A stretch of 64,000 nt of DNA from an uncultured Chloroflexia bacterium. Lineage in GTDB: Bacteria > Chloroflexota > Anaerolineae > JAAYZQ01. Of the stretch, positions 8,829 to 34,981 are shown in pieces. Under the pieces are notes generated by a model that did not search any database, had not been told where the DNA came from, and saw only the letters and a program-made list of their open reading frames with translations. Position numbers and translations under genes: made by a program. The stretch spans positions 1,184,001 to 1,248,000 of the forward strand of contig CAVOXA010000010.1 in the NCBI GenBank assembly GCA_963700285.1. Direction: 5' to 3'. Every line of letters begins with the position of its first letter. Positions within the stretch are counted from its first letter, which is position 1.

Positions 8829-11800
8829 ATGAATATTCTAAAGCGGAGAAAATTCGAGATCCCATCCGAGGTCAGCGGCCGCCCTGTCACCAATCGTGGC
8901 GTGCACCTGCAGCCCTTTGGATTTCACGGATTCTGGCTTGATCGAGAGAACGAGGACCACTATTGGACTGATCTCTTGAAAGGGATGGGCATGTCATGGG
9001 TGGTGATGCTCACTGAGGGTGACAGCGTCTTGGAAGAGCGCGGTGGGACCACCCCTCTCAATGCCCTGTTGGACGCAGGCGTCATCCCCATTATCCGTGA
9101 CAAACAAAAGCTACCTCGTCCCTTCTCCAATATAGATGCGGTTAAACGTACTGTTCCGGTCTACAGGCAGTATGGATTGCGCCCGTTCTGGCAACTCTAT
9201 AATGAGCCCTTTGATCCTAGGGAGTGGAGAAATGGGGAGGTCCCACCCTACGACGAAGCCTGGGCGATCATTGCTTCCCGGTGGTCTCAGGGGGCGAGGC
9301 AGGTCGCGGATGCGGGCGCCTATGTCGGCTTTCCCGATGGGCCTGGCTACGATGAGAACCCGTACGAGAAGCTGCGTCCAGCCGGGGGACTGGACGTTTT
9401 TGATGAGGGTATGGCTTTTTATGCGCCCCACACCTACGGCAAGGGCCGGCCCCTGTGGTATCCTTATGATGCGGTTACCCGCCACGCTGCCTTGCTAACC
9501 GATGAGGCATACCTCCGCTTGCTGGATGACTTTGCCGATGAGCCAAATTGGTACGACGCGCCCCTGGAATTCCTCAACGCCCAACGTCGGGGGTGGGCCA
9601 ATCCGGACCGGACAGCCCTCGATGATGATACCTGTTGGCGCGGCTGGGAAAAGATTGTAGCCTGGTCCATCGAGTCCCTGGGTTATGTCCCTCCCCTGGC
9701 CATGACAGAAGGGGGATGGACACCCCGTGACCGGGCAGGGTCCAATCCTGTGGACGCACGCTGGCCCTACTCCACGCCCAAGATGGTGGCCAAAAAGACG
9801 CTGCATATGTATGATACGCCATCGCCTTTTTTCGCCATTTGTCCCTGGCTGGTGGCCAGCGAGGATATGGGCGGTGCTGGCTGGTACGACGATGCCTGGC
9901 ACGGTGGGGCGTTCAGCCAGACCTACGGGCGCAAAAAACCGGTCATCCTCACCCTGGAGCAAGTCCCGCCCAAAGAGGTCGAACCTCGGACAGAGCCCCT
10001 GGTCATCGATGTGGATGGCGATACCCGCGATTGGGACTGGGCCGAGACAGCCTACGGGGCCGGCTACCGGCGGGGCGAGACCTCGCTGCGGCTCATCGAG
10101 GTCCACGAGTACGAGGGGCCTACGACTCTGGATGTCATTGTGGTAGACGTTGATGGTCTGCCCATCGAGGGAGTCGAGTTCTATTACCACTATCCCGGCG
10201 CCTCGTCCATTGGCAGCGGCGAATGGTATGACCGGGGCGTGGCGGCTACCTCCGACCAGGCCGGCCGCATTCACTTTGCAGCATCCGAGAATGGCGGGGA
10301 GTGTGTGCCCGGCACCTGTCAGGGCGCCATCTGGCCGGCAGGGAAGGGGGATGTCCTGGACCATCTGGGCTTCCTGGCCGGCACGCAGAACCGTCACCTC
10401 AATGGTGTGTGGCAGTGGCTGGAGGATGGACCTGAACCCGAACCTGAACCTGAACCCGAACCTGAACCCGAACCTGAACCCGAACCTGAACCTGAACCCG
10501 AACCTGAACCTGAACCCGAACCTGAACCCGAACCTGAACCCGAGCCCGGCCCATACGTCGATCCTCGCATTGAACCCTTCCTCACCCTGGACCTGAGTGG
10601 GGACACCTACAAGTTGGTCGAGGTCCTGTGGTACGATCCCCATGAGTCTGGCGGGAAGCACCTTATCTTCCTCGACGTCGTCGATGAGGATGGGCAGCGG
10701 CTGGCCGGTGAGAAAGTGGTCATATCTTGGCCAGGTGGCCAGGCGCCCGTGACGATTGAGGAGAAACCTGGCGAGCTCTGGGGCGGAAGCTTTGGCATGT
10801 CCGCCACGTTGGGCGCTTACGCTGCCCGTGTCGCTCCAGAAAGTGGTACCTCGGATGCCGTGGCTGGTTTGGGCAGGGGGACGCCTGAGGAGCCGGATGT
10901 CATGCACGCTACCTCTTTTGGCATCACCTTCAAAAAGCTCTCCGAGCCTGAACCGGAGCCGGAGCCGGAGCCAGAGCCTGAACCGGAACCTGAGCCTGAA
11001 CCGGAGCCAGAGCCTGAACCGGAGCCTGAGCCAGAGCCTGAACCTGAACCGGAGCCAGAGCCTGAACCTGAACCGGAGCCTGAACCTGAACCGGAGCCAG
11101 AGCCTGAGCCTGAACCCGAGCCTGGTCCCTATGTCGACCCGCGTATCGAGTCTTTCCTGACGCTGGATCTTGGCGGGGATACGTACAAGTTGGAGGAAGT
11201 CCTGTGGTACGATCCCGACGAGTCGGGCGGTAAGCACCACATCTTTCTCGACGTGGTTAATGGCGAGGGCAATCGTCTGGCCGGGGAAAAGGTGATCGTG
11301 TCGTGGTCAGGTGGCCAGGTTCCCGTGACCATCGAGGAGAAACCTGGCGAGCCCTGGGGCGGCAATTTTGGTATGTTCGCCACGTTGGGCTCCTATGCCG
11401 TTCGCGTTGATCCAGAGACCGGATCGTCGGATGCTGTGAGTGGCCTGGGCTTGGGCACGCCCGAGGAGCCGAATATCAAGCACCATACCTCCTTTGGCAT
11501 CACCTTCAAAAAGCTCTCTGAGCCGGAACCTGAACCTGAGCCGGAACCAGAACCCGAGCCTGAGCCGGAACCAGAACCCGAGCCTGAGCCGGAACCAGAA
11601 CCTGAACCAGAACCTGAACCAGAGCCGGAGCCCGGTCCCGATGTCGACCCGCGTATTGAGCCCTTTCTCACTCTGGATCTCAGCGGGGACACCTACAAGC
11701 TGGTGGAGATTCTGTGGTATGACCCCGCAGAATCAGGGGGGCGACACCATATCTTTTTCGACGTCGTTGACGAGGTAGGGCAGCGGTTGGCCGGGGAAAA

Positions 11801-13895
11801 AGTGATCGTATCCTGGCCAGGCGGCCAGGTCCCCATCATCATCGAGGAAAAGCCCGGTGAGCCGTGGGGGGGCAACTTTGGTATGGCGGCGACGCTGGGT
11901 ACCTACACTGCGCGTGTTGCCCCTGAAAGCGGCTCATCGGATGTTGTCAGTGGGCTGGGCCGGGGGACGCCCGAGGAGCCCAATGTGAACCACGCTACCT
12001 CTTTTGGCATCACCTTCAAAAAGCTCTCCGAGCCAGAACCCGAGCCGGAACCCGAACCGGAACCGGAGCCTGAGCCTGAACCGGAGCCCAATGGCAACAA
12101 CCTTGGCTTCTATGTCGAAGCCACCAACGTCGCCGGCTTGCCGGAGGCCATCCGGGATGTCAAGCCTCCTACCCTGCTGACCCACGCCAACGATCGGGGG
12201 CTGCTGCAGTGGATCCGCCGCGAGCTTTCGCCCGACACCTTTGTCATCGGCCGCCTGCACGTCGACCAGCACGTACAGGATGCGTGGCTGACCAGCGGCG
12301 ACCCCGCGGGCAAAGGGCGCGAGTTCGCGGAAACGATCCTCCGCCTCGATATGGGGCTGGCCCTCGAGCGGGGGGCCAACGGCCGGCTGTTGATCGACGC
12401 CTGGATGAGTCTCAACGAGTGCGTACCTGGGCCTGAATCCAATGCCTACCTGGGGGGCAGCGATGAGGATCGGGCCAAGATCCGGGCCAAAGCCGACGCC
12501 TACGACCGCTTCATGGTCGCCTTCCTGCAGCGCCTCAAGCAGGAGGACGGCGATCTGGATGCCGTGGCCTTTAACTTTGGGGCGGGCAACTTTCAGACGG
12601 CCGCCGGCTATCTGGACTGGTTCCCCCGTACGTTGGCCTCCCATACTTATCTGGGCTTTCACGAATATGGCTGGCGGGCGCTCTCCGCGCATCTGGACCC
12701 CAACACCGCCTCGGCCGCGGGCTTTTACCGGCCCTGCATGGCCGGAATCCGGCAGGCCTACGGCACCCATCAAAAGGCCATCATCACGGAGGCCGGCCTG
12801 GCCCGGTTGTACAAGCATATCGAGTTTCCCCCTGGCGACGTTGGCTGGCTGTACGAGGGCGAGACCATCAGCCAGGACGATTATTGGGCGTCACTGGCCT
12901 GGTACAACAGTATGCTTCTCCGGGACCGCTACGTGTTGGGCTCCTGCCTTTTTAACGTCGGCCACTCGGGCAAGTGGGTGACTTTCCGCCACCTGGGCAA
13001 AGACAACGACGGACAATGGATTACGATCATCGACCGGATCGCCGCCCTTAGCGCGCCGCGTGCCCCGCTCCTGCTGGAGCCGCCCTCGCTGGTGACGTTG
13101 CAGGGCCGTGTCCTCAACCAGGAGGATCGTGATGCCCTGGACAAACAGCAGGTTCCCGGTTCCATGATCCGGCTCATCGGCTCGCCCCATACCTTGGGCG
13201 CCGACCCGCGCGCGGCTGCGTTCGACACTGATGCCGTCAGTTGGACGCGGCGCATCAAAGGCTTCCGGGGCAGCGTCTGGAACTGCTGGCAGAAGTATGT
13301 CGAGCGCGAGGTGGCCGGCATTACCTGGGAGGAGTTCAAGGACGGTGTCGTGAAGCAAAATCCGTCTTTGGGTAACTCTGGAGGCCGGTTCAAGGCCAAG
13401 CGCAGGTACTATCTTCCTGAGAACCGGAAACTGGACGACCCGCAAGGCGAACGACCGGAGATCGAATGGGATCGGCTCCTGACCGGCTTCCGTGGAACTC
13501 GCTGGGATTGCTGGCAAAAATACGTCCGCGGCAAGGTAGTCGGTCTGGACTGGCATGCCTTCAAATCAAAGGTCGTGAGACGGAACCCCCAACTGGCCGG
13601 GGATGGCAACCGTTTTGTTCCCCGAGAACGCTACGTGCTGCCCCGCAATGCCGGCCAGTACGAGTACATGCTCGTGGCCTATGCCAACGCCCGAGGGCGC
13701 TACCGCTTCGAATCGCTATTGCCCGGTCTCTACACTGTCGAGGTTACTTCCCCCGGTTCCCAGTCGCTGCGGCGCCAGATCGAGATCAAGGCTGATACCA
13801 CCCTCGATCTGGAGATTGAGCCGCTGCACCGGCAGCCCCTTCCGAGAGGCCAAGATGAAGGACGAGGTCAAGACAAGGCAGAAACTGATCGCTGA
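8829..13895 (+). CDS. 1688-aa modular protein: two GH-A-like TIM barrels, three ~130-aa repeats, (PE)n linkers and a C-terminal beta-sandwich with two LysM-like inserts
   Basis: YNEP...MTEGGW and LNE...HEYGW...ITEAG resemble clan GH-A acid/base and nucleophile motifs. Three copies of VDPRIE.FLTLDL...GITFKKLS and two copies of W.R...GFRG..W.CWQKYV...NP.L. Function is inferred. Confidence 0.7.
10431..10550 (+). repeat. (Pro-Glu)n coding tract 1
   Basis: Tandem CCT/CCC GAA hexamers. Confidence 0.95.
10944..11125 (+). repeat. (Pro-Glu)n coding tract 2
   Basis: Tandem CCN GAR hexamers. Confidence 0.95.
11520..11636 (+). repeat. (Pro-Glu)n coding tract 3
   Basis: Tandem CCN GAR hexamers. Confidence 0.95.
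12028..12090 (+). repeat. (Pro-Glu)n coding tract 4
   Basis: Tandem CCN GAR hexamers. Confidence 0.95.
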
Positions 13896-14400: not shown

Positions 14401-14765
14401 TTTGGGCAAGACCCGGTTCCCGGTTGAATCTCTTTGCGTTCTTGGCGTCTTTGCGGCGAAAAAAACGCCAGCAAGCAGAACCCACCTTTGACATCCCTTA
14501 TGTTTCGTGGTAAGCTTGTGGACGGAAAGGGGAATTGTCAGGAATCCTCCGAGCGGCGGCTTCCCGCTACTCAAAGGGTCTTTGGACGCAGTCGTCACCC
14601 CCTTCATTGTCGAAAGATCTTCCCCTCTCATACACGAGCACCCCGGCAAAGGGTTGCCGTGGCACACAACAACGAATTTAGAATACAACGAATTGGACTG
14701 CCCGGGAAGTCAATTCGTTCCTTTCTCAATTCGTTGTAGTACCGTGGCACACAACAACAAATTCG
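14393..14765 (+). repeat. Caspase-associated promoter/leader cassette, copy 1
   Basis: Colinear similarity to 20206-20617. Contains TTGACA(14488)-17 nt-TAAGCT(14511), several hairpins and a ~75-bp palindromic unit. Confidence 0.9.
14523..14745 (+). ncRNA. Putative structured 5' leader RNA, family not recognised
   Basis: Hairpins conserved in position with the copy at 20317-20617 despite sequence change; GAAA tetraloop stem. Confidence 0.5.
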
Positions 14766-14798: not shown

Positions 14799-17700
14799 AT
14801 GTCCGATTTCCGGGCCAGCCGGGCCGTCGTCATCGGCATCAACGACTACCAGCATGGCATCCCAAAACTACGTACCGCCGTCAATGACGCCCGGAGGCTG
14901 GCCGAGATCCTGGCGCAGGACTATGGTTATGAAGTCGACCTGCTGGTCGAGGACGTGACCAAGTCCCGGCTCGCGGCGTACTTTGAGGCAGCGCGATCCA
15001 CCGTAGGCAAGGACGACCGCCTGCTGATCTACTTTGCCGGCCACGGCATCGCCCTCGACGGCGACGACGGGCCGGCCGGCTACCTGGTGCCCCAGGACGC
15101 CCGGCCCGAGGATCGCGACACCTTCCTGCCCATGACCGAGCTGCACCGCTGGCTGGAGGCGCTGCCCGCCCGCCACCTGCTGGCCATCCTGGACTGCTGC
15201 TTCGCCGGGGCCTTTCGCTGGGCATCGACGCGGGCCCTGGTGCCGGTCCCGGAGGTGATCCATAAGGAGCGCTACGACCGTTTCATTCGGGATGCGGCCT
15301 GGCAGGTGATCACCTCCGCGGCCTACGACCAGACGGCCTTGGACCAACTGGCCGGGGACGACAAGCGGGGTGTGGCGCAAGAAGGGGGCTTGGCCCATTC
15401 GCCCTTTGCCCGGGCGCTGTTCGAGGCCCTGGCCGGGGCCGGCGACGTGGTGCCCCGGGGAGAGGGCGACGGCGTCATCACCGCCACGGAGTTGTACCTG
15501 TACCTGCGGGATGAGGTCGAGGTCCAGGCCGAGGAGGGGGCCAGCCACGCCCAGACGCCGGGGCTGTGGCCGCTGAACAAGCACGACAAGGGGGAGTATA
15601 TCTTTTTGGTGCCGGGCCACGAGCTGAACCTGCCGCCGGCGCCGGAGCTGACCGGCGACAACAACCCCTATCGCGGCCTGCAGTCCTACGACGAGGAGCA
15701 CTGCCAGCTCTTCTTTGGGCGGGAAGAAGAGATCGAGGATCTGGCCGTGTTGGTGGCGGGGCAGGCCTTCACGGCCGTGCTGGGTGCCTCGGGCACGGGC
15801 AAGTCGAGCCTGGTCAAGGCCGGCCTGCTGCCCCGCTTGGGGGGCTGTGCCGAGGACCGTGAGCCGGCGGAGGGGTTGGAGGGTGCCTGGTTCATTCTAC
15901 CTCCCCTGCGTCCCACGGCTACGCCCCTCCTGGCCCTCCAGCAGGTATTGGGCAAGGTTGCCTCCGCGCCAGATATTGAGGCGTTGCACACGGATCCCAA
16001 TACCCTGGCGGCTCTCGTCGCCTCCTGGCGAAACCGTCACCCTGGAACCTATTTCTTGCTGGTGGTCGACCAGTTGGAGGAGCTGATCACGCTCTGCCGG
16101 GACGACGGCCAGCGGGATCAATTCCTGGCGCTGCTGGCCGCGGCCATGGCACAGCAGCCGGATACCTTTCGCCTGGTTGTTACCCTGCGCACCGACTTTG
16201 AGCTGCAGCTTGCCCAGGACACGGCGCTGGCAGGGCCCTGGGCTCGGGAGGGCGCCCGCTACGTGGTACCGCCCATGGACCACGACGACCTGCGGGCGGT
16301 GATCGAGGGTCCTGCCTCGGTGCGAGTGCTCTACTTTGAGCCCTACGGGCTGGTGGACGATCTGATCAAGGAGGTGATCCAGACGCCTGGCGCGCTGCCC
16401 CTGCTGTCCTTCACCCTGAGCGAGCTCTATATCAAGTACCTGGAGCGCCAGGCTGGAGCCAGGCGGGCCGGCGAGACCGTCGACCGCTCCTTGACCGAAA
16501 CGGATTACCAGGCGTTGGGCGGCGTGCTGGGCTCGCTCCGGAATCGCGCCACCGAGGAGTATGAGGATCTGCCGGACGACGCCCACCGGGAGACGATGCG
16601 GCGGGTGATGCTGCGCATGGTGGCCGTGGAGGGCGGTGAGGTGGCCCGCCGGCGCGTGCCCCGTTCTGAGCTGGTATATCCCGGCGAGGAGGAGAACCAG
16701 CGGGTGGACACGGTCATCCAGCGGCTGGTGGCCGCCCGCCTGCTCGTTGAGGGCAGTGAGGAGGACGGCGCCGCCTACGTGGAGCCGGCTCATGACGCGT
16801 TGGTCCGGGCCTGGGACAAGCTGTTGGCCTGGAAGGCCGGGGCGGAGGAGTACCTGCCCTTGCAGCGGCGGCTGGGCCAGGCGGCGGCCGAGTGGGATCG
16901 GGCCGCGGAGAAGGACCGCAGGGGACTGCTCTGGGACGACGACCCGCGCCTGCCCCAGGTGGAGGACGTCGTCTGGCCGGCGGGCAATGGGCGCCGGGGT
17001 GTCAGGGGCCGGGCCAGATGGCTCAAGCACGTGATCCTGCCCGACGTCGACCACCCGGGCGATACCGCCTGGCTGAACCGGCGGGAGGTGGTCTTTGTCC
17101 AGAAGAGCGTTTCCCGTAGGGCCAGCGTGCTGCGGCGCATCGCCGTGATTACGCTGGCCGTGATGGCCATCCTGGCCATGCTGTCCGTGTTCGCCTTTCG
17201 CCAGCAAGCGATTGCCCAGAGGAACGCCGACGATCTCGCTGTTGCCAACGACAACCTGGAGGTAGAGCGGGACAACGCCCTCCGGCAAAGTCGCATCTCC
17301 CGGGCCAGAGAGCTGGCTGCGCGTGCGCAGCTCTCGCTGGAGGAGTCACCGCCCAGGACGTTGCTGCTGGCTGCTGAGGCCGTGAGCATTACGCAGAGCA
17401 TCGACGGGCTGGCCATGACCGAGCCGGAGCAGGCCCTTTGGGATGCAAACGTCGCCGCCGGAGGCATACCCCTGTACGGCCATGAGGCCGAGGTTGTTGC
17501 CGTTGCGCTGTCCCATGATAATCGCTGGCTGGCCACGGCAAGCTGGGACAACAGTGCGCGTCTGTGGGACATGCGCGATCGGGATGCCGAGTCGGTGGTC
17601 CTGCGCGGCCATGATGACCTGGTCAACGATGTGGCCTTTTCCCATGACGACCGCTGGCTGGCCACGGCCAGCGATGATGGTACTGCTCGCCTTTGGGACA

Positions 17701-19559
17701 TGGCGGATCCAGCGGCTGAGCCCATCGTCCTGCGCGGCCACGAGGATGTGGTCAACGATGTGGCCTTTTCCCATGACGACCGCTGGCTGGCTACGGCCAG
17801 CGACGACGGTACCGCCCGTCTGTGGGACATGGCAGACCCGAGTGCTGAACCCCTTGTCTTGGCCGGCCACGCGGACTGGGTCAACAGCCTGGCTTTCTCG
17901 CCCGACGACCGCTGGCTGGCCACGGCCATCGAAGATGGAACCGCGCGTCTGTGGGATCTGGGGGATCCCGATGCCGAACCGGCCGTGCTCGACAGTTCAA
18001 ACGAATACCTTCTGGACATTGGATTCTCCCCCGATGGCCGCTGGCTCGCGGCCGTAGGCGGAAGCGGGAGCAATGTCGATCTTTGGGACCTGGAAGGGGA
18101 GGAGGCTGTAGCGTTTGCCCTGGAGGGGCACATCGGCGATGCCTATGTTCTGGCCTTCTCAAGCGACAGCCGCTGGCTGGCGACAGCCGGCTCGGCCGGC
18201 GCCGTGCGTCTGTGGGACCTGGAGGATCCAGACGCCGAGTCAATTGTCCTGGCCGTGAGAGATTTGAGCAAAGGGGGCATTGTAGAGGATATTCCGGCGG
18301 TTGCCTTCTCGCCCGACGACAGACAGGTCGCGGCAGGCAGCCAGGATGGCACCGTTCGTCTCTGGGATATGGATGACCCCTTTGCTGACCCGCTGATTCT
18401 GTACGGGCACGAGGGGCGGGTCACCGATCTGGCCTACTCGCACGACGGTGAATGGCTGGTCTCCAGCAGCTACGACGATACTGCGCGCCTGTGGCAGCTA
18501 CAGAACCCTGGGATCGAGCCGCGCGTACTCGACCTGGGTTCCGCTGTCCTGTCGGTGGACTATGCTCCTGACGCGCGCCGGCTCGCCGCCGGCGGCTCGG
18601 ATGGAGCGACACGGCTCTGGGATCCGCAAAGCCTTGGCGTGGAGCCCGTCGTCTTGCCCGGCGACCCAACCGTCGAGGTCATGGTTTTCTCTGCTGATGG
18701 CCGCTTGCTGGCCACAGGCAATCACGACGGTGAAGTGACAGTATGGGAACTGGTGGATCTGGGCAGCGAGCCGCTGGTTCTTGACGCCCACGACGGGAGC
18801 GTTACCGGCATAGATCTTTCAGCCGATGGCCGCTGGCTGGCCACGGGTGGAGAGGACGAGACTGCGTTGCTGTGGGACCTGCAAAACCTCGATGCGGAGC
18901 CGGCTGCCTTCGACACTTTGAGCTTGGAGACGGCCGTGGCTTTTTCGAAGGATTCCCGGTGGCTGGCCATGACCTACGATACCCTGGGTGATGTTCACCT
19001 ATGGGATCTTCAGCGTCTCGATGATGGTCCTACGGTCCTGGAAGGCCACAACGCACTGGTGAAGGACTTGGTCTTCTCTCACGATGGCCAGAGGCTGGCC
19101 ACGGCGAGTTACGACCGTACCACGGAGGTATGGGATCTGCGGGACCTCGAAGCCGAGCCACTCATCCTCAGGGGGCATACGAACTGGGTTCTCGCTGTAG
19201 CTTTTTCCTCCGACGACCACTGGCTGGCGACCGCCGGCCTGGATGGCACGACGCGGCTCTGGGACCTGGATAATCCTGGTGTAGACCCGCTGGTTCTGCG
19301 CGGCCACGCCGATGCGGTCAACGATGTGGCTTTCTCCCCTGACGACCGTTGGCTGGTCACGGCCAGCGAGGATGGTACCGCTCGCCTGTGGACAAGGTCG
19401 ACGGATCTCCTGTTGGAGACGGCCTGCCAGACAGCCGGCCGTAACTTGACCCAAGGGGAGTGGAATCAGTACTTTCCGAATGAGCCCTATCGCAAGACGT
19501 GCCCCGGGCTGCCGGCACATCCCAGCGTGCTGGTTGCTGAGGAGGTCGAGACACCGTAG
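14799..19559 (+). CDS. Caspase-like (C14) protease - nSTAND1-type NTPase - TM - 15 WD40 repeats
   Basis: FAGHG/LDCC dyad; PYRGLQSY...FFGRE; Walker A GASGTGKSS; Walker B LLVVDQLEE; GALPLL; HDALVRAW; TM helix IAVITLAVMAILAMLSVFAF; 15 counted WD40 units. Confidence 0.92.
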   Translation: MSDFRASRAVVIGINDYQHGIPKLRTAVNDARRLAEILAQDYGYEVDLLVEDVTKSRLAAYFEAARSTVGKDDRLLIYFAGHGIALDGDDGPAGYLVPQDARPEDRDTFLPMTELHRWLEALPARHLLAILDCCFAGAFRWASTRALVPVPEVIHKERYDRFIRDAAWQVITSAAYDQTALDQLAGDDKRGVAQEGGLAHSPFARALFEALAGAGDVVPRGEGDGVITATELYLYLRDEVEVQAEEGASHAQTPGLWPLNKHDKGEYIFLVPGHELNLPPAPELTGDNNPYRGLQSYDEEHCQLFFGREEEIEDLAVLVAGQAFTAVLGASGTGKSSLVKAGLLPRLGGCAEDREPAEGLEGAWFILPPLRPTATPLLALQQVLGKVASAPDIEALHTDPNTLAALVASWRNRHPGTYFLLVVDQLEELITLCRDDGQRDQFLALLAAAMAQQPDTFRLVVTLRTDFELQLAQDTALAGPWAREGARYVVPPMDHDDLRAVIEGPASVRVLYFEPYGLVDDLIKEVIQTPGALPLLSFTLSELYIKYLERQAGARRAGETVDRSLTETDYQALGGVLGSLRNRATEEYEDLPDDAHRETMRRVMLRMVAVEGGEVARRRVPRSELVYPGEEENQRVDTVIQRLVAARLLVEGSEEDGAAYVEPAHDALVRAWDKLLAWKAGAEEYLPLQRRLGQAAAEWDRAAEKDRRGLLWDDDPRLPQVEDVVWPAGNGRRGVRGRARWLKHVILPDVDHPGDTAWLNRREVVFVQKSVSRRASVLRRIAVITLAVMAILAMLSVFAFRQQAIAQRNADDLAVANDNLEVERDNALRQSRISRARELAARAQLSLEESPPRTLLLAAEAVSITQSIDGLAMTEPEQALWDANVAAGGIPLYGHEAEVVAVALSHDNRWLATASWDNSARLWDMRDRDAESVVLRGHDDLVNDVAFSHDDRWLATASDDGTARLWDMADPAAEPIVLRGHEDVVNDVAFSHDDRWLATASDDGTARLWDMADPSAEPLVLAGHADWVNSLAFSPDDRWLATAIEDGTARLWDLGDPDAEPAVLDSSNEYLLDIGFSPDGRWLAAVGGSGSNVDLWDLEGEEAVAFALEGHIGDAYVLAFSSDSRWLATAGSAGAVRLWDLEDPDAESIVLAVRDLSKGGIVEDIPAVAFSPDDRQVAAGSQDGTVRLWDMDDPFADPLILYGHEGRVTDLAYSHDGEWLVSSSYDDTARLWQLQNPGIEPRVLDLGSAVLSVDYAPDARRLAAGGSDGATRLWDPQSLGVEPVVLPGDPTVEVMVFSADGRLLATGNHDGEVTVWELVDLGSEPLVLDAHDGSVTGIDLSADGRWLATGGEDETALLWDLQNLDAEPAAFDTLSLETAVAFSKDSRWLAMTYDTLGDVHLWDLQRLDDGPTVLEGHNALVKDLVFSHDGQRLATASYDRTTEVWDLRDLEAEPLILRGHTNWVLAVAFSSDDHWLATAGLDGTTRLWDLDNPGVDPLVLRGHADAVNDVAFSPDDRWLVTASEDGTARLWTRSTDLLLETACQTAGRNLTQGEWNQYFPNEPYRKTCPGLPAHPSVLVAEEVETP

Positions 19560-19708
19560 CGTCCAATTGAACTCCCGAGTAGTCAAAAGTACCTAGGAAA
19601 GTTAGTCATTTCTTCCGATGTGCGGCGGCCTACAACGTGCTACAATTGGAGGAGACGAGGAGGTAGGGGCAAGAGATCGCGTCCTTACCGCCTGTATTCC
19701 CAGGGAAA

Positions 19709-19915
19709 TTGGCCGCGAACCTACGCCAACTCAAGACCACATGGCCCCAGGCCCGCTACCTCGTGCTCTTTGACGACGAGCAGGACCGCCGTCACGTACA
19801 GTCTGCCGGTGCCGACGAGGTCCTGGTTAAGGGCATCCGCGCTGCCACAATCCTGGAAACTATGGAGGATCTTCTGTCTGATGACAGCCCAAGTCCTCCT
19901 AGGGGAAGGAGCTAG
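19709..19915 (+). pseudogene. C-terminal half of a degenerate receiver (REC)-like domain
   Basis: LRQLKTTWPQARYLVL...AGADEVLVKG resembles REC alpha3 to beta5. An in-frame stop lies at 19664 upstream and the N-terminal half is missing. Confidence 0.5.
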
Positions 19916-19916
19916 A

Positions 19917-20156
19917 ATGGAAACCTATCGATTCTATCCACCGCAAGTCCGGCCCGCGCAGGTGCCGTACCACGTGCTGGCTGCCGGGACAGAAAGCTGC
20001 CAGCACGAACTGCTGGACAACGCCTGGTGCGACCGCATCATGGTTCAGGACGGCATTATCTTTATCACCTACTCCTGCCGGCACTGCGGCCGGCAGATCT
20101 GCCAGTCCCTGGACGAAGTGTCGCCGCCTGGGTGGAACGGGCATAGCGCGCACTGA
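19917..20156 (+). CDS. 79-aa putative zinc-ribbon protein
   Basis: AAGGAG RBS; CQH...YSCRHCG motif. Confidence 0.6.
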   Translation: METYRFYPPQVRPAQVPYHVLAAGTESCQHELLDNAWCDRIMVQDGIIFITYSCRHCGRQICQSLDEVSPPGWNGHSAH

Positions 20157-20166
20157 GAAAGGATCT

Positions 20167-20272
20167 CACCGCAAAGGCGCAAAGAACGCAAAGAAGAGCG
20201 AGTTTGGAGGATTCCTGGGGCAAGGCCCACATGTCCTTGATCCCCCTTGGCGTCCTTCGCGCCTTGGCGGTG
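20167..20272. repeat. REP-like imperfect inverted repeat (CGCAAAG.CGC.AAG type)
   Basis: TCACCGCAAAGGCGCAAAGAACGCAAAG ... CTTGGCGTCCTTCGCGCCTTGGCGGTGA. The right arm recurs at 14431-14460. Confidence 0.75.
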
Positions 20273-20617
20273 AATTGGTGCTTGACAGCGCATATGTTTC
20301 GTGGTAAGCTTGTGGGTGGAAAGGGGCTTGTCAGGAACCCACTGAACGTCGAGTTCTCGACGCTCTCAGTGTCATTGGACGCAGCCGTCATCCCCTTCAA
20401 TGTCGAAAGACCTTCCCCTCTCACTCACGAGCACCCTGTCGGATGGTTGCCGTGGGATACAACAACGAATTGAGAATACAACGAATGGACTGCGCGGGAT
20501 GTGGATTCGTTCCTTTCCCGATACGTTGTAGTGCGAGAAGAACAACAACGAATTGAGAATACAACGAATGGACTGTGCGGGAAGACGATTCGTTCCTTTC
20601 CCAATTCGTTGTAGTAC
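20206..20617 (+). repeat. Caspase-associated promoter/leader cassette, copy 2
   Basis: TTGACA(20282)-17 nt-TAAGCT(20305); leader homologous to copy 1; two tandem palindromic units at 20459-20532 and 20542-20615. Confidence 0.9.
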
Positions 20618-20640
20618 CAGCACCATAACAGGAGAACAAC

Positions 20641-22761
20641 ATGAGCGAGGACACAGGGACCGGAGCCAACTTTTATGCCCTGCTCATCGGCATAGACCAC
20701 TACCTCAAGCACACGCTGCCTGGGGGTGGCTACTACCCCAAGCTTGGCGGATGTGTGGCCGACGTCCGGCGGGTCGAGGCCTTTCTAAAGACCAAACTGG
20801 ACCTGCCCGAGGAGAACATCTACAAGCTAACCGCCACCTACGGCACCAGCCCAGAGCCCCCGGAACCAAAGGAGCAGTGGCCCACCTACGAGAACATGGT
20901 CGCTGCCTTCCAGAAGGTGACCGAGGTAGCCGGCGCGGGTGACCAGGTCTACGTCCACTATTCCGGCCACGGCGGCCGGACCAAAACCATCTACCCCCAG
21001 CTCAAGGGCGAGGCGGGCCAGGACGAGTCGCTGGTACCCATGGACATCGGCCGCGAGGGCGCCCGCTACCTGCGCGACCTGGAGCTGGCCCACATCTTCC
21101 AGAGGATGGTCGACAAGGGCATCCTCCTTACCGTAGTTCTGGACAGTTGCCACTCGGGCGGCACCACCCGTGCCCTGGACGTCGTCGTGCGCGGCATCGC
21201 CGGGCTGGATACCACCCCGCGTCCCACCGACAGCCTGGTGGCTTCAGCGGAGGAACTGGCTGACACGTGGCTGGGGAGTACGGCCGGCCAGACCCGCGCC
21301 CTCAAGCCCGGCGGCGGCTGGCTGCCCCAGCCCAAGGGCTACACGCTGCTGGCCGCCTGCCGCTCCCAGGAGTTCGCCCACGAGTACAATGTGGCGCCGG
21401 GCAAGCGGGGCGGAGCGCTCACCTGGTGGACCCTCGAGAGCCTGAAGCAGATCGGCCCCGGCCTCACCTATCGTATGCTCCACAACCAGGTCCTGCCCAA
21501 GATCCATGCCCAGTTCCCCCAACAGACGCCCCAGCTCCAGGGTGTAGAGTCCCGGGCTGTGTTCGGCAGCGAAACTGTGCAGCCGGTGCACTCGGTGAAC
21601 GTCATGGCGGTGGGCGCGGAGGGCGAGCGCGTCCAACTGGCCACCGGCCAGGTCCAGGCGGTGACCAAGGGCTCCCAGTTCGCCGTCTACCCTGGGGGGA
21701 CGGAAGATTTCCGGCAGGTTGAGCAGCGTCTGGCCCTGGTGGAGATCGACGATCTGGGAGCTGCCAGCTCCTGGACCAAGCTCGTGAAGATCTTTGGCCG
21801 GGGCGAAATCGGGCCGGGAGATCAAGCTGTGCTGCTGGATCCCGGCAAGGTCCGCCTTCGCCGCCGGGTGCGGCTGGTGACCCAGGGACAGGAAGAAGTA
21901 CCTCCTTCCATCGACCAGGACGAGGCCCTGGATGCGATCCGCGCTGCACTGGAAAGGGAGGGAAGCGGCTGGGTCAGCCTGGGCATGGAGGGCGAGACCG
22001 TCGACTATCAGGTCGCGGTCAATGCCATGGGCCAGTACGAGATCTGGGACCGGTCCGGGGTGCCCATCCCCAACCTGCGGCCCGCGCTTGACTATCTCGA
22101 CTCAGGTGCCCCCGCGCGCGTCGTCCAGCGCCTGGTGCACCTGACCAAGTTCAACAACCTGCTGCTCCTGGACAACCATGACCCGACCTCGCCCCTGGCC
22201 CGCGCCGTGGAGGTAGAGGTCCTGCAGGCCCAGCCCGACTATGAGCCGGGCGAGCCGCCGGACCCGCAGCCCTTTGACGATCCCGGCAACACGCCCACGG
22301 CATCCACCGGCCAGTGGCTGCTGGCCCGCATCAAGAACCGGTCGTCAGAGACCCTCAACCTTGTAGTCTTTGATCTATCGTCTGACTGGAGCGTGGCCCA
22401 GGTGCACCCCACCTGGACCGACTATGTGAGCCTTGATGCCGGGGCGGAAGAGATCTTTCCCCTGCAGGCCGGGCTGCCCCAGGGATATGAGGCGGGTAGC
22501 GACGTGCTCAAGGTCTTTGCCACGCTGGGACCGGCCAACTTTCGATGGCTGGAGATGCCCGAGCTGGACCAACCACCCCTGCGCAGATCCTCAGTCATGC
22601 GTTCCATTGAGGAGCGCGACCCGCTGGAGGAGATGCTGGCCGCCTTTATCGGGGACAAGCCCCTGCCGCTGACCCGCAGCCTCAACCCGGCCGAGTATCC
22701 CAGCCGCGGCTGGTCCACAGTTCAGATGGAGGTGCACGTAAAAAAAGCGAGCAGGGGCTGA
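20641..22761 (+). CDS. Caspase-like (C14) protease with C-terminal beta-sandwich (DUF4384-like) domain
   Basis: ALLIGIDHY, LGGCVADV, YSGHG, LDSCHSG and LLAAC...E.AHE motifs; AGGAG RBS. Confidence 0.9.
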   Translation: MSEDTGTGANFYALLIGIDHYLKHTLPGGGYYPKLGGCVADVRRVEAFLKTKLDLPEENIYKLTATYGTSPEPPEPKEQWPTYENMVAAFQKVTEVAGAGDQVYVHYSGHGGRTKTIYPQLKGEAGQDESLVPMDIGREGARYLRDLELAHIFQRMVDKGILLTVVLDSCHSGGTTRALDVVVRGIAGLDTTPRPTDSLVASAEELADTWLGSTAGQTRALKPGGGWLPQPKGYTLLAACRSQEFAHEYNVAPGKRGGALTWWTLESLKQIGPGLTYRMLHNQVLPKIHAQFPQQTPQLQGVESRAVFGSETVQPVHSVNVMAVGAEGERVQLATGQVQAVTKGSQFAVYPGGTEDFRQVEQRLALVEIDDLGAASSWTKLVKIFGRGEIGPGDQAVLLDPGKVRLRRRVRLVTQGQEEVPPSIDQDEALDAIRAALEREGSGWVSLGMEGETVDYQVAVNAMGQYEIWDRSGVPIPNLRPALDYLDSGAPARVVQRLVHLTKFNNLLLLDNHDPTSPLARAVEVEVLQAQPDYEPGEPPDPQPFDDPGNTPTASTGQWLLARIKNRSSETLNLVVFDLSSDWSVAQVHPTWTDYVSLDAGAEEIFPLQAGLPQGYEAGSDVLKVFATLGPANFRWLEMPELDQPPLRRSSVMRSIEERDPLEEMLAAFIGDKPLPLTRSLNPAEYPSRGWSTVQMEVHVKKASRG

Positions 22762-22889
22762 CGCCGGCGGATGCGCCGCAGGGAGAAACACCCACTGCGG
22801 TGCCGCAAGAGGGGTTTACACTTGCGGCCGTCGCCGAGCCGGAGCAGTCCCTTTCGGTGAACCAAATAGACACAGCAGGAGGTGAGCCC

Positions 22890-23378
22890 ATGGAACCTGA
22901 TGGACAGAATAGCGAGCGCAAGAGCCTCTGGACGCCTGAGGTGATCATCCAGGCCTTCAAGGAGGCCATCACGGCCCTGCTGGGATTGGCGGTGGTGGGT
23001 TATACCCTCATCCTGGCCGGGAATACCCTGTCCCTGGTGGGGCAGCCCGAAAAGTTATCCGATGCCAAGGACATCCTGATGTTGGTCCTGGGTCTGGCGG
23101 GTGTGGTCGTGGGTTACTACTTTGGTCGTGTGCCGGCCGATGCGCGGGCCAGCCAGGCGCAGCAGCAGGCCAACGATGCCACGGCCCAGAGCGAACAGGT
23201 CCACGCCCAGGCCCAGGCCATCGCCGATGAGGTAGACGAGGTGATGGAGCGGATGGCGAGACCCTCCGTCACAGCACGCGGGGCCGAGTCCTCGGCAACA
23301 GATCTCGCCCTGGCCGAGGACCTGTATCGCATCCGCGATGATCTTCGGTCTCTATCCAAGCTAAGTAGAAGGAGGTAA
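22890..23378 (+). CDS. Two-TM protein with GYYFG motif and C-terminal coiled coil
   Basis: AGGAGG RBS before ATG 22890; two hydrophobic helices, the second ending GVVVGYYFG; Q/A-rich helical tail. Confidence 0.8.
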   Translation: MEPDGQNSERKSLWTPEVIIQAFKEAITALLGLAVVGYTLILAGNTLSLVGQPEKLSDAKDILMLVLGLAGVVVGYYFGRVPADARASQAQQQANDATAQSEQVHAQAQAIADEVDEVMERMARPSVTARGAESSATDLALAEDLYRIRDDLRSLSKLSRRR

Positions 23379-23381
23379 GCT

Positions 23382-24683
23382 GTGAATACAAATGATCTAT
23401 TGACCGCATGGTCCATGATGTCTCTGGAAGAGATCGAAACCCGGCTGGAGTCTGGAATCGATGATGCTGCGGCGGAACAGTTTTTCGGCGCCAAAGAGAT
23501 GGCCGAGATGCAGTCGCTATCCAGAGAGCCTCAGGCGCGAGGGCTGCGCGAGGCTGTGGTGCTCCTGCCAGGAGTGATGGGCTCGCTGCTGAGCAGCATC
23601 CGCGGCGTGACTACCCTGCTGTGGATCAACCCTCTCCTCTTTCTCAGGGGCCAGTCCAGCTACCTCGAACTGAACGATGCCGGTACCCACGACCGTGTCC
23701 CGGCCGTGGATGCCGTGCCCATTGGCCTGGAAAAGATGACCTATACCAAGATCGGCCTGTCCCTGCGCCGCAAGACCGACCTCTTTGAATTCCCCTACGA
23801 CTGGCGCCGGCCCATCGCCTGGAACGCGGCTCTCCTGCACGAGTGCCTGGAGCGCTGGGCAGGCGACAACCCCAACCGGCAGTTCACCCTGGTGGGCCAC
23901 AGCATGGGCGGGCTGGTCTCCCGGGCCTACCTGGCCCGCTATCCCCAGGCCTCCCAGCGGCGGGTCAAGCAGGTCATCATGCACGGCACGCCCCATTTTG
24001 GCGCGGCCGGCGCCGTGGCGAACCTGATCCATGGCAACAGCATGATGTCCCTGGCCGCCAAACTCAACAAAAAGAATGTGACGCGCCAGCTACTGCTGAA
24101 TATGCCCAGCGTCTACGAACTGGTGCCCGCGCCGCGTGACCTGTTCCCCTCTCACCGGCCCTACGCTGCCAATTGGGATCTTTACAACGCGGGCGAATGG
24201 GAACTGGAGGGCCTGCGCCAGGATTACCTGGATGCCGGGGCTGGGTTCCACAGGCTGCTGGCAGAGTCTGACCCTCAAGTCCAGATCACGCAGATTGCCG
24301 GCTGCAACCTGAGTACCATCGTGGACATGCAGCGCAGCTTTGGGCCCGATGGGGAGTCGGTGTACAACTCGCTCGGGAAGGAAGATGGCCCCGATGCCGG
24401 TGATGGCACGGTGCCACTGTGGTCGGCCGTCCTGCCCGGAGCCACCATGTATTACATTGAAGAGGTGCACCGCGACCTGCCCAAGAACAAGCAAATCCTC
24501 CGGGCTACCCTGGACCTGATTCATGGGCAACCGCCTGATCTGGACACCAGCATACCGGGTCGCAGGGCCATCGTGAAGCGCGATGTGGCACCGCCTGAGG
24601 TCGATGCGGAGGGGTTGAAGCAACGCATCGAGACGGGCACCGCCACAGAGAAGGACCTGGAGCAACTCTTCTTCGCCTTCTGA
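23382..24683 (+). CDS. Alpha/beta-hydrolase, LCAT/PGAP1-like lipase or acyltransferase
   Basis: LLPGVMGS oxyanion motif, FPYDWR, GHSMGG nucleophile elbow, GTPHFGA, GDGTVP and a later His. Confidence 0.88.
   Translation: MNTNDLLTAWSMMSLEEIETRLESGIDDAAAEQFFGAKEMAEMQSLSREPQARGLREAVVLLPGVMGSLLSSIRGVTTLLWINPLLFLRGQSSYLELNDAGTHDRVPAVDAVPIGLEKMTYTKIGLSLRRKTDLFEFPYDWRRPIAWNAALLHECLERWAGDNPNRQFTLVGHSMGGLVSRAYLARYPQASQRRVKQVIMHGTPHFGAAGAVANLIHGNSMMSLAAKLNKKNVTRQLLLNMPSVYELVPAPRDLFPSHRPYAANWDLYNAGEWELEGLRQDYLDAGAGFHRLLAESDPQVQITQIAGCNLSTIVDMQRSFGPDGESVYNSLGKEDGPDAGDGTVPLWSAVLPGATMYYIEEVHRDLPKNKQILRATLDLIHGQPPDLDTSIPGRRAIVKRDVAPPEVDAEGLKQRIETGTATEKDLEQLFFAF

Positions 24684-28537: not shown

Positions 28538-34981
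<6,444 letters not shown>

What the first reader, a model, noticed from the sequence alone, without database searches (positions are those of the whole stretch)
15227..24600. Shared x-R|(A/G/S) motifs at domain boundaries of all four caspase-locus proteins
Seen: caspase 1 has STR|AL just after the catalytic Cys (~15230). Caspase 2 has TTR|AL and VVR|GI after its Cys (~21170-21195), QTR|AL (~21295), VMR|SI (~22600) and LTR|SL (~22675). The 2TM protein has TAR|GA in its tail (~23280). The lipase has QAR|GL exactly where the hydrolase fold starts (residue 53, ~23540) and VKR|DV before its C-tail. Known: bacterial orthocaspases and metacaspases cut after Arg and self-process in the loop following the catalytic Cys. 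Inference: these motifs are the wiring code of the cascade.
Basis: partly seen in the sequence, partly recalled or inferred. Interest (0 to 1): 0.75.

Follow-up and report, generated by a model that had tools for sequence, protein, structure and literature searches.

The report
Arginine cut sites in caspase relay
Four neighbouring bacterial genes (a sensor-linked protease, a second protease, a small membrane protein and a lipase-like enzyme) carry arginines that relatives mostly keep, several in otherwise variable loops; these are likely the cut sites of a protease relay of a known kind rather than a new address code, and they point to the unstudied membrane protein as a likely new target.

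Summary
All nine motifs are at the stated coordinates. As a bare pattern, R-[A/G/S] occurs at chance frequency in these proteins. Conservation in relatives supports seven of them. Caspase 1 R145 is Arg in 148/151 sequences. Caspase 2 R177, R184, R219, R654 and R679 are Arg in 114, 119, 119, 95 and 110 of 120. The 2TM protein's R160 is Arg in 101/120, inside a variable linker. The lipase sites are weaker (R53 73/120, R400 68/120).

Caspase 2 has His110/Cys170/Arg219, almost the numbering of Microcystis MaOC1 (His110/Cys169, activating cut at Arg219), and R219 sits in the model's only disordered internal loop. The consensus is (T/A/V)-R|(G/N/D/S/A), the ordinary preference of Arg-specific bacterial caspases, not a routing code.

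A STAND-caspase to MaOC1-like caspase to effector relay is likely but unshown. The lipase link is weak: only 2 of 37 relatives' loci have a caspase or CHAT protease nearby. Verdict: a new variant of known caspase-effector modules, with precise testable sites and an uncharacterised 2TM candidate effector.

The parts
14488..14764 (+). Duplicated leader upstream of caspase 1: TTGACA-17 nt-TAAGCT promoter-like site, about 190 nt of shared sequence and one 84-nt hairpin
   Evidence: 81% identical to 20282-20554; hairpin z -4.9; no Rfam match
14799..19559 (+). Caspase 1, 1586 aa: C14 caspase (His82/Cys134), nSTAND1 (290-705), hydrophobic helix 774-806, WD40 propellers; likely sensor/initiator
   Evidence: Pfam nSTAND1 1.6e-101 and WD40; PF00656 7.9e-20; PADLOC caspase; hydropathy
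15231..15233 (+). Caspase 1 R145 (STR|AL), post-Cys loop, predicted self-processing site
   Evidence: Arg in 148/151; P2 T 82%, P1' D 49%
15366..15368 (+).
   Evidence: Arg in 145/151 with flanking conservation 0.25; top-ranked Arg of the domain
20282..20624 (+). Duplicated leader upstream of caspase 2, with two 83-nt hairpin repeats
20641..22761 (+). Caspase 2, 706 aa: C14 caspase (His110/Cys170) with p20-linker-p10 fold plus a DUF4384-like C-terminal region; MaOC1-like; likely zymogen/executioner
   Evidence: Pfam C14; model pLDDT 87.6; best fold matches AtMC9 and AtMC4; Atlas DUF4384 cluster 0.94, family on 17% of members
21169..21192 (+). Caspase 2 R177 (TTR|AL) and R184 (VVR|GI), post-Cys loop
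   Evidence: Arg in 114 (+5 Lys) and 119 of 120; P1' G 90% and 96%. R177 flanks are also conserved (0.74), and R184 is in an ordered stretch of the model
21295..21297 (+). Caspase 2 R219 (QTR|AL), predicted activating cut, equivalent by numbering to MaOC1 Arg219
   Evidence: Arg in 119/120, invariant in alignment A3; only internal pLDDT<50 segment is 218-224; fragments 23.8 + 53.5 kDa
22600..22677 (+). Caspase 2 R654 (VMR|SI) and R679 (LTR|SL), flanking helix 661-670; predicted double cut
   Evidence: Arg in 95 and 110 (+9 Lys) of 120; ranks 2 and 3 of 41 Arg for conservation above flanks
22890..23378 (+). 2TM protein, 162 aa from ATG 22890 (residue numbers here count from GTG 22800): two TM helices, a tail inferred to be helical, a variable linker and a conserved C-terminal segment; no family assignment; candidate effector
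   Evidence: 196 homologues; no Pfam or NCBIfam hit over cut-off; Atlas clusters unnamed; hydropathy
23277..23279 (+). 2TM R160 (TAR|GA), predicted cut removing the last 32 residues
   Evidence: Arg in 101/120 with flanks 0.37, rank 1 of 12 Arg
23382..24683 (+). LCAT/LPLA2-like alpha/beta hydrolase, 433 aa (predicted triad Ser174/Asp341/His363) with N- and C-terminal helical caps
   Evidence: Pfam LCAT 6.5e-12; triad residues invariant in A1; fold match to lysosomal PLA2 4e-13
23538..23540 (+). Lipase R53 (QAR|GL), between the N-terminal helices and strand 1; moderate support
   Evidence: Arg in 73/120, G54 in 106/120; [TAVM]R[AGS] in linker 64/119 vs 13.8 shuffled; rank only 18 of 29 Arg
24579..24581 (+). 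Lipase R400 (VKR|DV), disordered loop before the C-terminal helices; weak support
   Evidence: Arg in 68/120; pLDDT<50 at 399-405; motif not enriched over shuffles

Best explanation
The conserved arginines in the two caspases and the 2TM protein are likely cut sites for the locus's own Arg-specific caspases, in a predicted relay from a STAND-WD40 sensor caspase to a MaOC1-like second caspase to latent effectors. Shown: the motifs, their conservation, intact His-Cys dyads and invariant acidic residues in both caspases, and the co-oriented gene order. Inferred steps: (1) a ligand bound by the WD40 propellers oligomerises caspase 1, which would self-process at R145/R190; (2) caspase 2 would be switched on by a cut at R219 in its p20-p10 linker, by caspase 1 or by itself, with R177/R184 and R654/R679 as further processing or autoinhibitory sites; (3) the active caspase would clip the 2TM protein at R160, releasing a 32-residue C-terminal piece that likely holds a membrane effector in check; (4) less certainly, it would remove the lipase's N-terminal cap at R53, and perhaps the C-terminal cap at R400, freeing a phospholipase-like enzyme. 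The likely outcome is membrane damage and death or dormancy of the cell. Selectivity would come from an exposed Arg with small neighbours in a flexible loop, not from distinct addresses.
For: Conservation above flanks: caspase 2 R219, R654, R679 and R184 rank 1-4 of 41 Arg; 2TM R160 ranks 1 of 12; caspase 1 R190 and R145 rank 1-2 of 22. Thr recurs at P2 in separate loops (82, 90, 81, 53, 69%). R219 is in the only internal disordered segment of the model. MaOC1 has dyad His110/Cys169 (PMC7935541) and is activated at Arg219, separating a 55 kDa piece (PMC7475262); caspase 2 has His110/Cys170/Arg219 and a 53.5 kDa C-terminal piece, and a Cys-to-Arg spacing of 50 is the mode of the family (58/120). 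Type II metacaspases, the best fold match, are activated by a linker Arg/Lys cut (PMC9626678). All 3 plasmid homologues of caspase 2 have an nSTAND1-WD40 gene nearby; in 2 it is caspase-fused and directly downstream. Same-genus G263 keeps the caspase 2 leader and start fused to the 3' part of 2TM and an intact lipase, so the three genes were joined before a 2.5-kb deletion. Both caspase genes share a duplicated leader. A Lysobacter caspase activates a hydrolase at two R|G sites. 20 of 51 distant lipase loci carry a fused or neighbouring CHAT or C14 protease.
Against: No cleavage was measured. MaOC1 self-processes in E. coli without an activator (PMC5756287), so caspase 2 may not need caspase 1. 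Only 2 of 37 same-class lipase loci and 1 of 7 close metagenome loci have a C14 or CHAT gene in the fetched flank. 22 of 36 lipase-bearing genomes show no C14 caspase, and the N-linker motif does not track C14 presence (9/14 vs 10/22, p 0.32; independent pairs 2.0 vs 2.7). Three distant 2TM homologues sit beside no caspase, yet one keeps TTR|GA. None of the 3 plasmid caspase 2 loci has a 2TM gene. Caspase 2-2TM linkage outside this genus rests only on 4 pairs with equal contig length and source (three of them re-seen, no accessions returned). R177 and R184 lie in conserved or ordered sequence and could be structural. Homologue counts are of related, non-independent sequences.
Confidence: 0.55

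Rival explanations
1. The caspase arginines are ordinary self-processing sites, and caspase 2 is a promiscuous killer protease like PsCaspase or PCaspase. The 2TM protein and the lipase are not its dedicated substrates: the lipase's Arg linkers would serve CHAT proteases elsewhere in the genome, or nothing.
For: Lipase relatives mostly lie among housekeeping genes. 35/36 lipase genomes have CHAT but only 14/36 have C14. The N-linker motif is commoner with two or more CHAT genes (18/25 vs 1/11). PsCaspase cuts 70 proteins after Arg. Plasmid caspase 2 loci lack the 2TM gene.
Against: CHAT is common anyway (55/68 control genomes), and the CHAT trend is post hoc and does not survive pairing on a tree (1.5 vs 0 pairs, p 0.5). 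2TM R160 is kept in a variable linker, and the gene was joined to caspase 2 in the genus.
Confidence: 0.25
2. Several of the arginines are conserved as structural or autoinhibitory contacts (an Arg parked in the acidic S1 pocket, or a salt bridge) and are not cut.
For: R184 is in an ordered strand (block pLDDT 88) and R53 in an ordered coil (block pLDDT 89). In type II metacaspases the linker crosses the S1 pocket. Other non-motif Arg are just as conserved (R113, R497).
Against: R219, R654, R679, R190 and R160 are conserved while their flanks vary, and R219 is disordered. Docking in S1 and being cut are compatible.
Confidence: 0.12
3. The motifs form a true address code in which each caspase recognises its own sequence and so fixes the order of the cascade.
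For: P1' differs by site in a conserved way: G at R177, R184, R654, R160 and R53, but N/D at R219, R679 and R145.
Against: Both classes occur within each caspase. Characterised bacterial caspases need only P1 Arg, with a slight preference for small neighbours. The strict motif fails at R679 and R400.
Confidence: 0.05
4. The motifs are chance occurrences in a GC-rich, Arg-rich proteome.
For: Bare R[AGS] is at expected frequency. Lipase R400 is not enriched.
Against: 79-99% conservation at seven named sites plus R190.
Confidence: 0.03

Closest known systems
MaOC1 orthocaspase of Microcystis aeruginosa PCC 7806 (PMC7935541, PMC7475262, PMC5756287: passages read; the 2015 primary paper was not seen)
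   Same: Dyad His110/Cys169 against His110/Cys170 here; activation at Arg219 with a piece of about 55 kDa against R219 and 53.5 kDa here; cyanobacterial homologues are in the hit list.
   Different: No direct alignment was possible. MaOC1 is followed by a toxin-antitoxin pair; here the neighbours are a STAND-caspase, a 2TM gene and a lipase. The model shows a p10-like half that orthocaspases are said to lack.
Caspase-activated alpha/beta-hydrolase module of Lysobacter capsici (10.1101/2025.11.14.688446: parts 1-4 of 6 read)
   Same: A caspase-linked hydrolase zymogen cut at conserved R|G sites; such proteases are fused to STAND or beta-transducin sensors.
   Different: LcHydrolase is about 33 kDa and loses an internal 4.7 kDa piece (Arg73, Arg117). 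This enzyme is 433 aa, LPLA2/LCAT-like, with candidate sites at both ends of the core. Homology was not tested. There are two caspases here.
SAVED-CHAT to PCaspase cascade of type III-B CRISPR (10.1101/2023.06.23.546230: passages read)
   Same: An initiator protease activating a second caspase-like protease that cuts neighbouring gene products.
   Different: No CRISPR, SAVED or CHAT gene among the locus genes scanned; the presumed initiator is a C14-nSTAND1-WD40 protein.
Type IV Thoeris PsCaspase (10.1101/2024.10.24.620036: passages read)
   Same: [quoted passage not shown]
   Different: Activated by a TIR-made nucleotide; no TIR among the locus proteins scanned.
Plant type II metacaspases AtMC9 and AtMC4 (PMC9626678: passages read)
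   Same: p20-linker-p10 fold (best Foldseek hits); activation by a cut at a linker Arg/Lys.
   Different: Described only from the green lineage and calcium-dependent; caspase 2 has about 400 extra C-terminal residues.
Bacterial Apaf-1-like STAND-WD40 proteins with an N-terminal caspase (PMC13581612, PMC8195603: passages read)
   Same: The caspase-STAND-WD40 architecture of caspase 1.
   Different: Caspase 1 has a hydrophobic helix before the propellers and a second caspase downstream; its ligand is unknown.

Membership tests
C14B Arg/Lys-specific caspase homologues | His-Cys dyad in a caspase fold | tested here: met
   His82 151/151 and Cys134 150/151; His110 and Cys170 119/120; fold
C14B Arg/Lys-specific caspase homologues | Acidic S1 pocket | tested here: met
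   D30 and D132 151/151; D41 118/120 and D168 119/120. That these positions form S1 is recalled from metacaspase structures; PMC5756287 states that the pocket is acidic
C14B Arg/Lys-specific caspase homologues | Measured cleavage after Arg or Lys | not testable with these tools
   needs an enzyme assay
MaOC1-type orthocaspase | Dyad and activation Arg at the same positions, with a C-terminal piece of about 55 kDa | tested here: met
   H110/C170/R219 and 53.5 kDa against H110/C169/R219 and 55 kDa
MaOC1-type orthocaspase | Sequence homology to MaOC1 over its length | not tested
   The MaOC1 sequence was in no call output; the supplement text of PMC7935541 lists only primers and legends
MaOC1-type orthocaspase | No p10 subdomain | tested here: inconclusive
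   The model matches AtMC9 chains at TM 0.60-0.65 of the target, which suggests a p10-like half; the literature label may be the thing in error
Type II metacaspase | p20-linker-p10 with a conserved linker Arg | tested here: met
Type II metacaspase | Green-lineage occurrence and no further C-terminal domains | tested here: not met
   Bacterial protein with about 400 extra residues: works like one, not a member
Lysobacter-type caspase/alpha-beta-hydrolase module | Hydrolase of about 33 kDa with two R|G sites that excise an internal fragment | tested here: not met
   433-aa LCAT-like enzyme with candidate sites at residues 53 and 400
Lysobacter-type caspase/alpha-beta-hydrolase module | Conserved pairing of hydrolase and protease genes | tested here: inconclusive
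   Met here and in G394; 2 of 37 same-class loci, 20 of 51 distant loci
EACC1 or Pepco effectors | Profile match of the small protein, or of the caspase to the EACC1-associated type | tested here: not met
   The 2TM protein has no hit over cut-off; caspase 1 scores 84.6 against a cut-off of 140 on NF047832
Type III-B CRISPR SAVED-CHAT/PCaspase | SAVED-CHAT and cas genes in the locus | tested here: not met
   None among the 7 proteins scanned from 8.8-24.7 kb
Antiphage (Avs-like) system | Phage-triggered protection | not testable with these tools
   PADLOC gives only a generic caspase model

The most novel reading that the evidence does not exclude
A CRISPR-independent two-tier caspase cascade: an Apaf-1-like STAND caspase activates a MaOC1-family executioner, which unleashes two new effectors, a 2TM membrane protein uncapped at R160 and an LPLA2/LCAT-like phospholipase zymogen uncapped at both ends. 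This would supply the natural trigger and substrates of the MaOC1 family and allow substrates to be predicted from conserved Arg islands in linkers.
Probability: 0.25. Interest if true: 0.75.

Novelty: new variant of a known kind. Interest (0 to 1): 0.5.

Why it matters
Caspase-activated effectors, Arg specificity and initiator-executioner chains in bacteria are all published, so the logic is not new. What this adds is a residue-level map for a large family (1,723 caspase 2 homologues) whose likely member MaOC1 has no known natural activator in the passages read. It also adds a recurring STAND-caspase partner and an unnamed 2TM family (196 homologues) with one sharply conserved candidate cut site. 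Each prediction is a single Arg-to-Ala test. Nine literature searches showed no description of this four-gene arrangement or of the 2TM family. The library lacks most subscription journals, and bioRxiv supplements, which may show such neighbourhoods, were closed.

Tried and rejected
(1) Motif frequency alone: at chance.
(2) Joint loss of lipase R53 and R400 looked very strong (59/14/9/38, Fisher 2e-11). An alignment-free version was weak (p 0.025), a control Arg column also correlated (R129, p 3e-5), and independent pairs on a tree were not significant (1.2 vs 0.8 by column; 3.9 vs 0.2 with a looser motif, median p 0.125). Not used as evidence.
(3) The idea that Arg-less lipases (xF|A linkers) sit beside a different protease: none found near G366 or G282.
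(4) G263, with intact lipase motifs and no C14 gene, first read as evidence against wiring; set aside because its caspase 2 was deleted and left a scar.
(5) The genome-contig scan with the single lipase gave only 2 loci. A phylum search with caspase 2 found it in 1 of 401 genomes, the window's own. An A3 search of 16 genomes found only caspase-domain matches in 4.
(6) No accessions to prove gene adjacency.
(7) No complex prediction was obtained, so there is no docking evidence.
(8) Earlier-findings look-ups returned nothing. Rfam gave nothing for the leaders.
Full report
Locus. Four co-oriented genes lie at 14799-24683. Caspase 1 (1586 aa) is C14-nSTAND1-WD40, with a hydrophobic helix at 774-806. 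Caspase 2 (706 aa) is a C14 protease with a DUF4384-like C-terminal region (the Atlas family is on only 17% of that cluster). The 2TM protein has no family; it probably starts at ATG 22890, but I number it from GTG 22800. The hydrolase (433 aa) is LCAT-like and folds like lysosomal phospholipase A2. Named close relatives of the hydrolase are Anaerolineae/Chloroflexota. The genome has 7 C14 domains.

Observation. All nine motifs are at the stated coordinates. Against 2,858 crudely called long ORFs of the genome, bare R[AGS] is at chance in all four proteins. Only a post hoc narrower pattern is enriched, and only in caspase 2 (6 vs 0.93). The pattern therefore proves little, and conservation is the real test.

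Sets used. Each alignment includes the query and leaves out its self-hit: the best 119 others of 1,723 caspase 2 hits, of 196 2TM hits and of 517 lipase hits, and the best 150 of 34,477 caspase 1 domain hits. These are related sequences, not independent events.

Caspases and 2TM. Caspase 2: R177 114 (+5 Lys), R184 119, R219 119, R654 95 and R679 110 (+9 Lys) of 120. Ranked by conservation above flanking columns, R219, R654, R679 and R184 are 1-4 of 41 Arg, and R177 is 11. 2TM: R160 101/120 with flanks at 0.37, rank 1 of 12.

Lipase. R53 is 73/120 and R400 68/120, ranks 18 and 9 of 29. The N-linker is enriched for [TAVM]R[AGS] (64/119 vs 13.8 in 300 shuffles); the C-linker is not (7/120 vs 10.9).

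Motif. P2 is mostly Thr, Ala or Val. P1' is Gly at R177, R184, R654, R160 and R53, but Asn/Asp at R219, R679 and R145. PsCaspase needs only P1 Arg with a slight preference for small neighbours (10.1101/2024.10.24.620036, passages). LcCaspase cuts R|G (10.1101/2025.11.14.688446, parts 1-4 of 6). This is generic specificity, not an address code.

Structure. In the caspase 2 model (pLDDT 87.6) the only internal segment below 50 is 218-224. R177, R654 and R679 fall in the low blocks (67, 58, 65) and R184 in an ordered one (88). R654 and R679 flank helix 661-670, before the last strand. The best fold matches are the type II metacaspases AtMC9 and AtMC4, which are activated by a linker Arg/Lys cut (PMC9626678, passages). 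In the lipase model R53 lies in an ordered coil between four N-terminal helices and strand 1, and R400 in a disordered loop before two C-terminal helices.

MaOC1. The Microcystis orthocaspase has His110/Cys169 (PMC7935541, passages and supplement text). It is activated by autocatalysis at Arg219, separating a 55 kDa piece (PMC7475262, passages), and it self-processes in E. coli without an activator (PMC5756287, passages). The 2015 primary paper was not seen. Caspase 2 has His110/Cys170/Arg219 and pieces of 23.8 and 53.5 kDa; MaOC1's spacings (59 and 50) occur in 10 and 58 of 120 family members. I infer that QTR|AL is the equivalent of an already mapped activation site, but I could not align the two proteins.

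Linkage, for. All 3 plasmid homologues of caspase 2 have an nSTAND1-WD40 gene within the fetched stretch; in 2 it is caspase-fused and next downstream, and one of these keeps STR after its Cys. Both caspase genes here share a duplicated leader of about 280 nt. In same-genus G263 the caspase 2 leader and first codons join straight to the 3' part of 2TM and a 91%-identical lipase, a 2.5-kb deletion, so caspase 2-2TM-lipase predates the split. Four caspase 2/2TM pairs and three 2TM/lipase pairs among the hits share contig length and source (five pairs re-seen), which is indirect. Of 51 distant lipase loci (L010-L060; L061-L082 not tallied), 20 carry a CHAT or C14 protease, often fused (the CHAT profile was built partly from these loci after Pfam had identified them).

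Linkage, against. The lipase occurs in 37 of 401 class genomes, but only 2 of 37 loci from the 36 other genomes have a C14 or CHAT gene in the fetched flank (median 19.9 kb). Most sit among housekeeping genes (one search scanned 53 chosen neighbours). Only 14 of the 36 genomes have any C14. CHAT is in 35 of 36, but also in 55 of 68 controls. The N-linker motif does not follow C14 presence (p 0.32), and no co-variation survived pairing on a tree. Three distant 2TM matches among 400 phylum genomes have no caspase nearby. No 2TM homologue was found on plasmids.

Mechanism and verdict. The most likely reading (0.55) is sensor-driven caspase 1 activation, caspase 2 activation at R219, then uncapping of the 2TM protein at R160 and, less surely, of the lipase at R53. 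All cleavage steps, their order and a defence role are inferred. The main rival (0.25) is self-processing plus promiscuous killing, with the lipase only loosely attached. The logic is known from MaOC1, PCaspase (10.1101/2023.06.23.546230, passages), LcHydrolase and caspase-bearing Apaf-1-like STANDs (PMC13581612 and PMC8195603, passages; PMC8283722, passages). The four-gene combination and the 2TM family were not found in nine searches; closed bioRxiv supplements may bear on this. New variant of a known kind; interest 0.5.

Noticed in passing
window 14488-14764 and 20282-20624; L115:10349-10736: Both caspase genes share an 81%-identical leader with a TTGACA-17-TAAGCT promoter-like site, ending in one or two 83-nt hairpins (z -4.9, -4.2, -0.9). 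The hairpin part is a dispersed repeat (12 matches in G000, 23 in G263, 5 of 41 genomes searched). No Rfam match.
   Followed up: partly
L115:10736/10733 (G263), matching window 20656/23162: A 2.5-kb deletion removes caspase 2 and the 5' part of 2TM in a same-genus genome, leaving the leader and the lipase; a short shared CCAAC at both ends suggests microhomology.
   Followed up: yes
window 23601-23603: Lipase R74|G75 (SSIR|GV) is Arg in 117/120 and always followed by Gly, inside a low-confidence segment (70-82) of the model: a further candidate cut site or a structural turn.
   Followed up: partly
lipase homologues P0014, P0016, P0018, P0021, P0027, P0038, P0045, P0051, P0117, P0120: A set of lipases has a Phe-rich C-linker (for example LFSF-A) in place of R400, and most also lack the N-linker Arg; no alternative protease was found beside the two such genome loci, G366 and G282.
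   Followed up: partly
L113 (G394:C6:6900-23542): A dense protease island: C14 caspase, two CHAT-NB-ARC-TPR genes, this lipase with both motifs, a second alpha/beta hydrolase, a papain-like protease and a TPR-CHAT.
   Followed up: no
L005:5786-11198; L010, L014, L016, L017, L023, L041, L049; L019: A lipase relative sits beside CHAT-nSTAND1; all 7 long distant forms scanned are hydrolase-CHAT fusions, 5 with an M17_N-like middle domain; one relative lies beside a clostripain gene.
   Followed up: partly
window about 17118-17216 (caspase 1 residues 774-806): A strong hydrophobic helix between nSTAND1 and the WD40 propellers may anchor caspase 1 in the membrane or place the sensor outside the cytoplasm.
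   Followed up: no
window 19917-20156: A small Cys/His-rich ORF (about 79 aa from ATG 19917) lies between the caspases; the stretch is also present, 76% identical, upstream of the deleted locus in G263. No Pfam hit.
   Followed up: no
window 8829-13895: A 1688-aa protein with four long Pro-Glu repeats separating repeated domains lies upstream of caspase 1.
   Followed up: no
window 28565-33200: An RNA polymerase beta-prime-like gene (recognised by eye from motifs, recalled) is broken into several frames, which suggests assembly indels in this window; the four locus genes are intact.
   Followed up: no
G000 C7:117886, C22:65487, C1:1209886, C14:615635: Four other caspase domains of the genome also carry a basic residue a few positions after the catalytic Cys (IQK|GI, GRR|AA, AMR|LS, IGR|DL), in line with a general C14 feature.
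   Followed up: no
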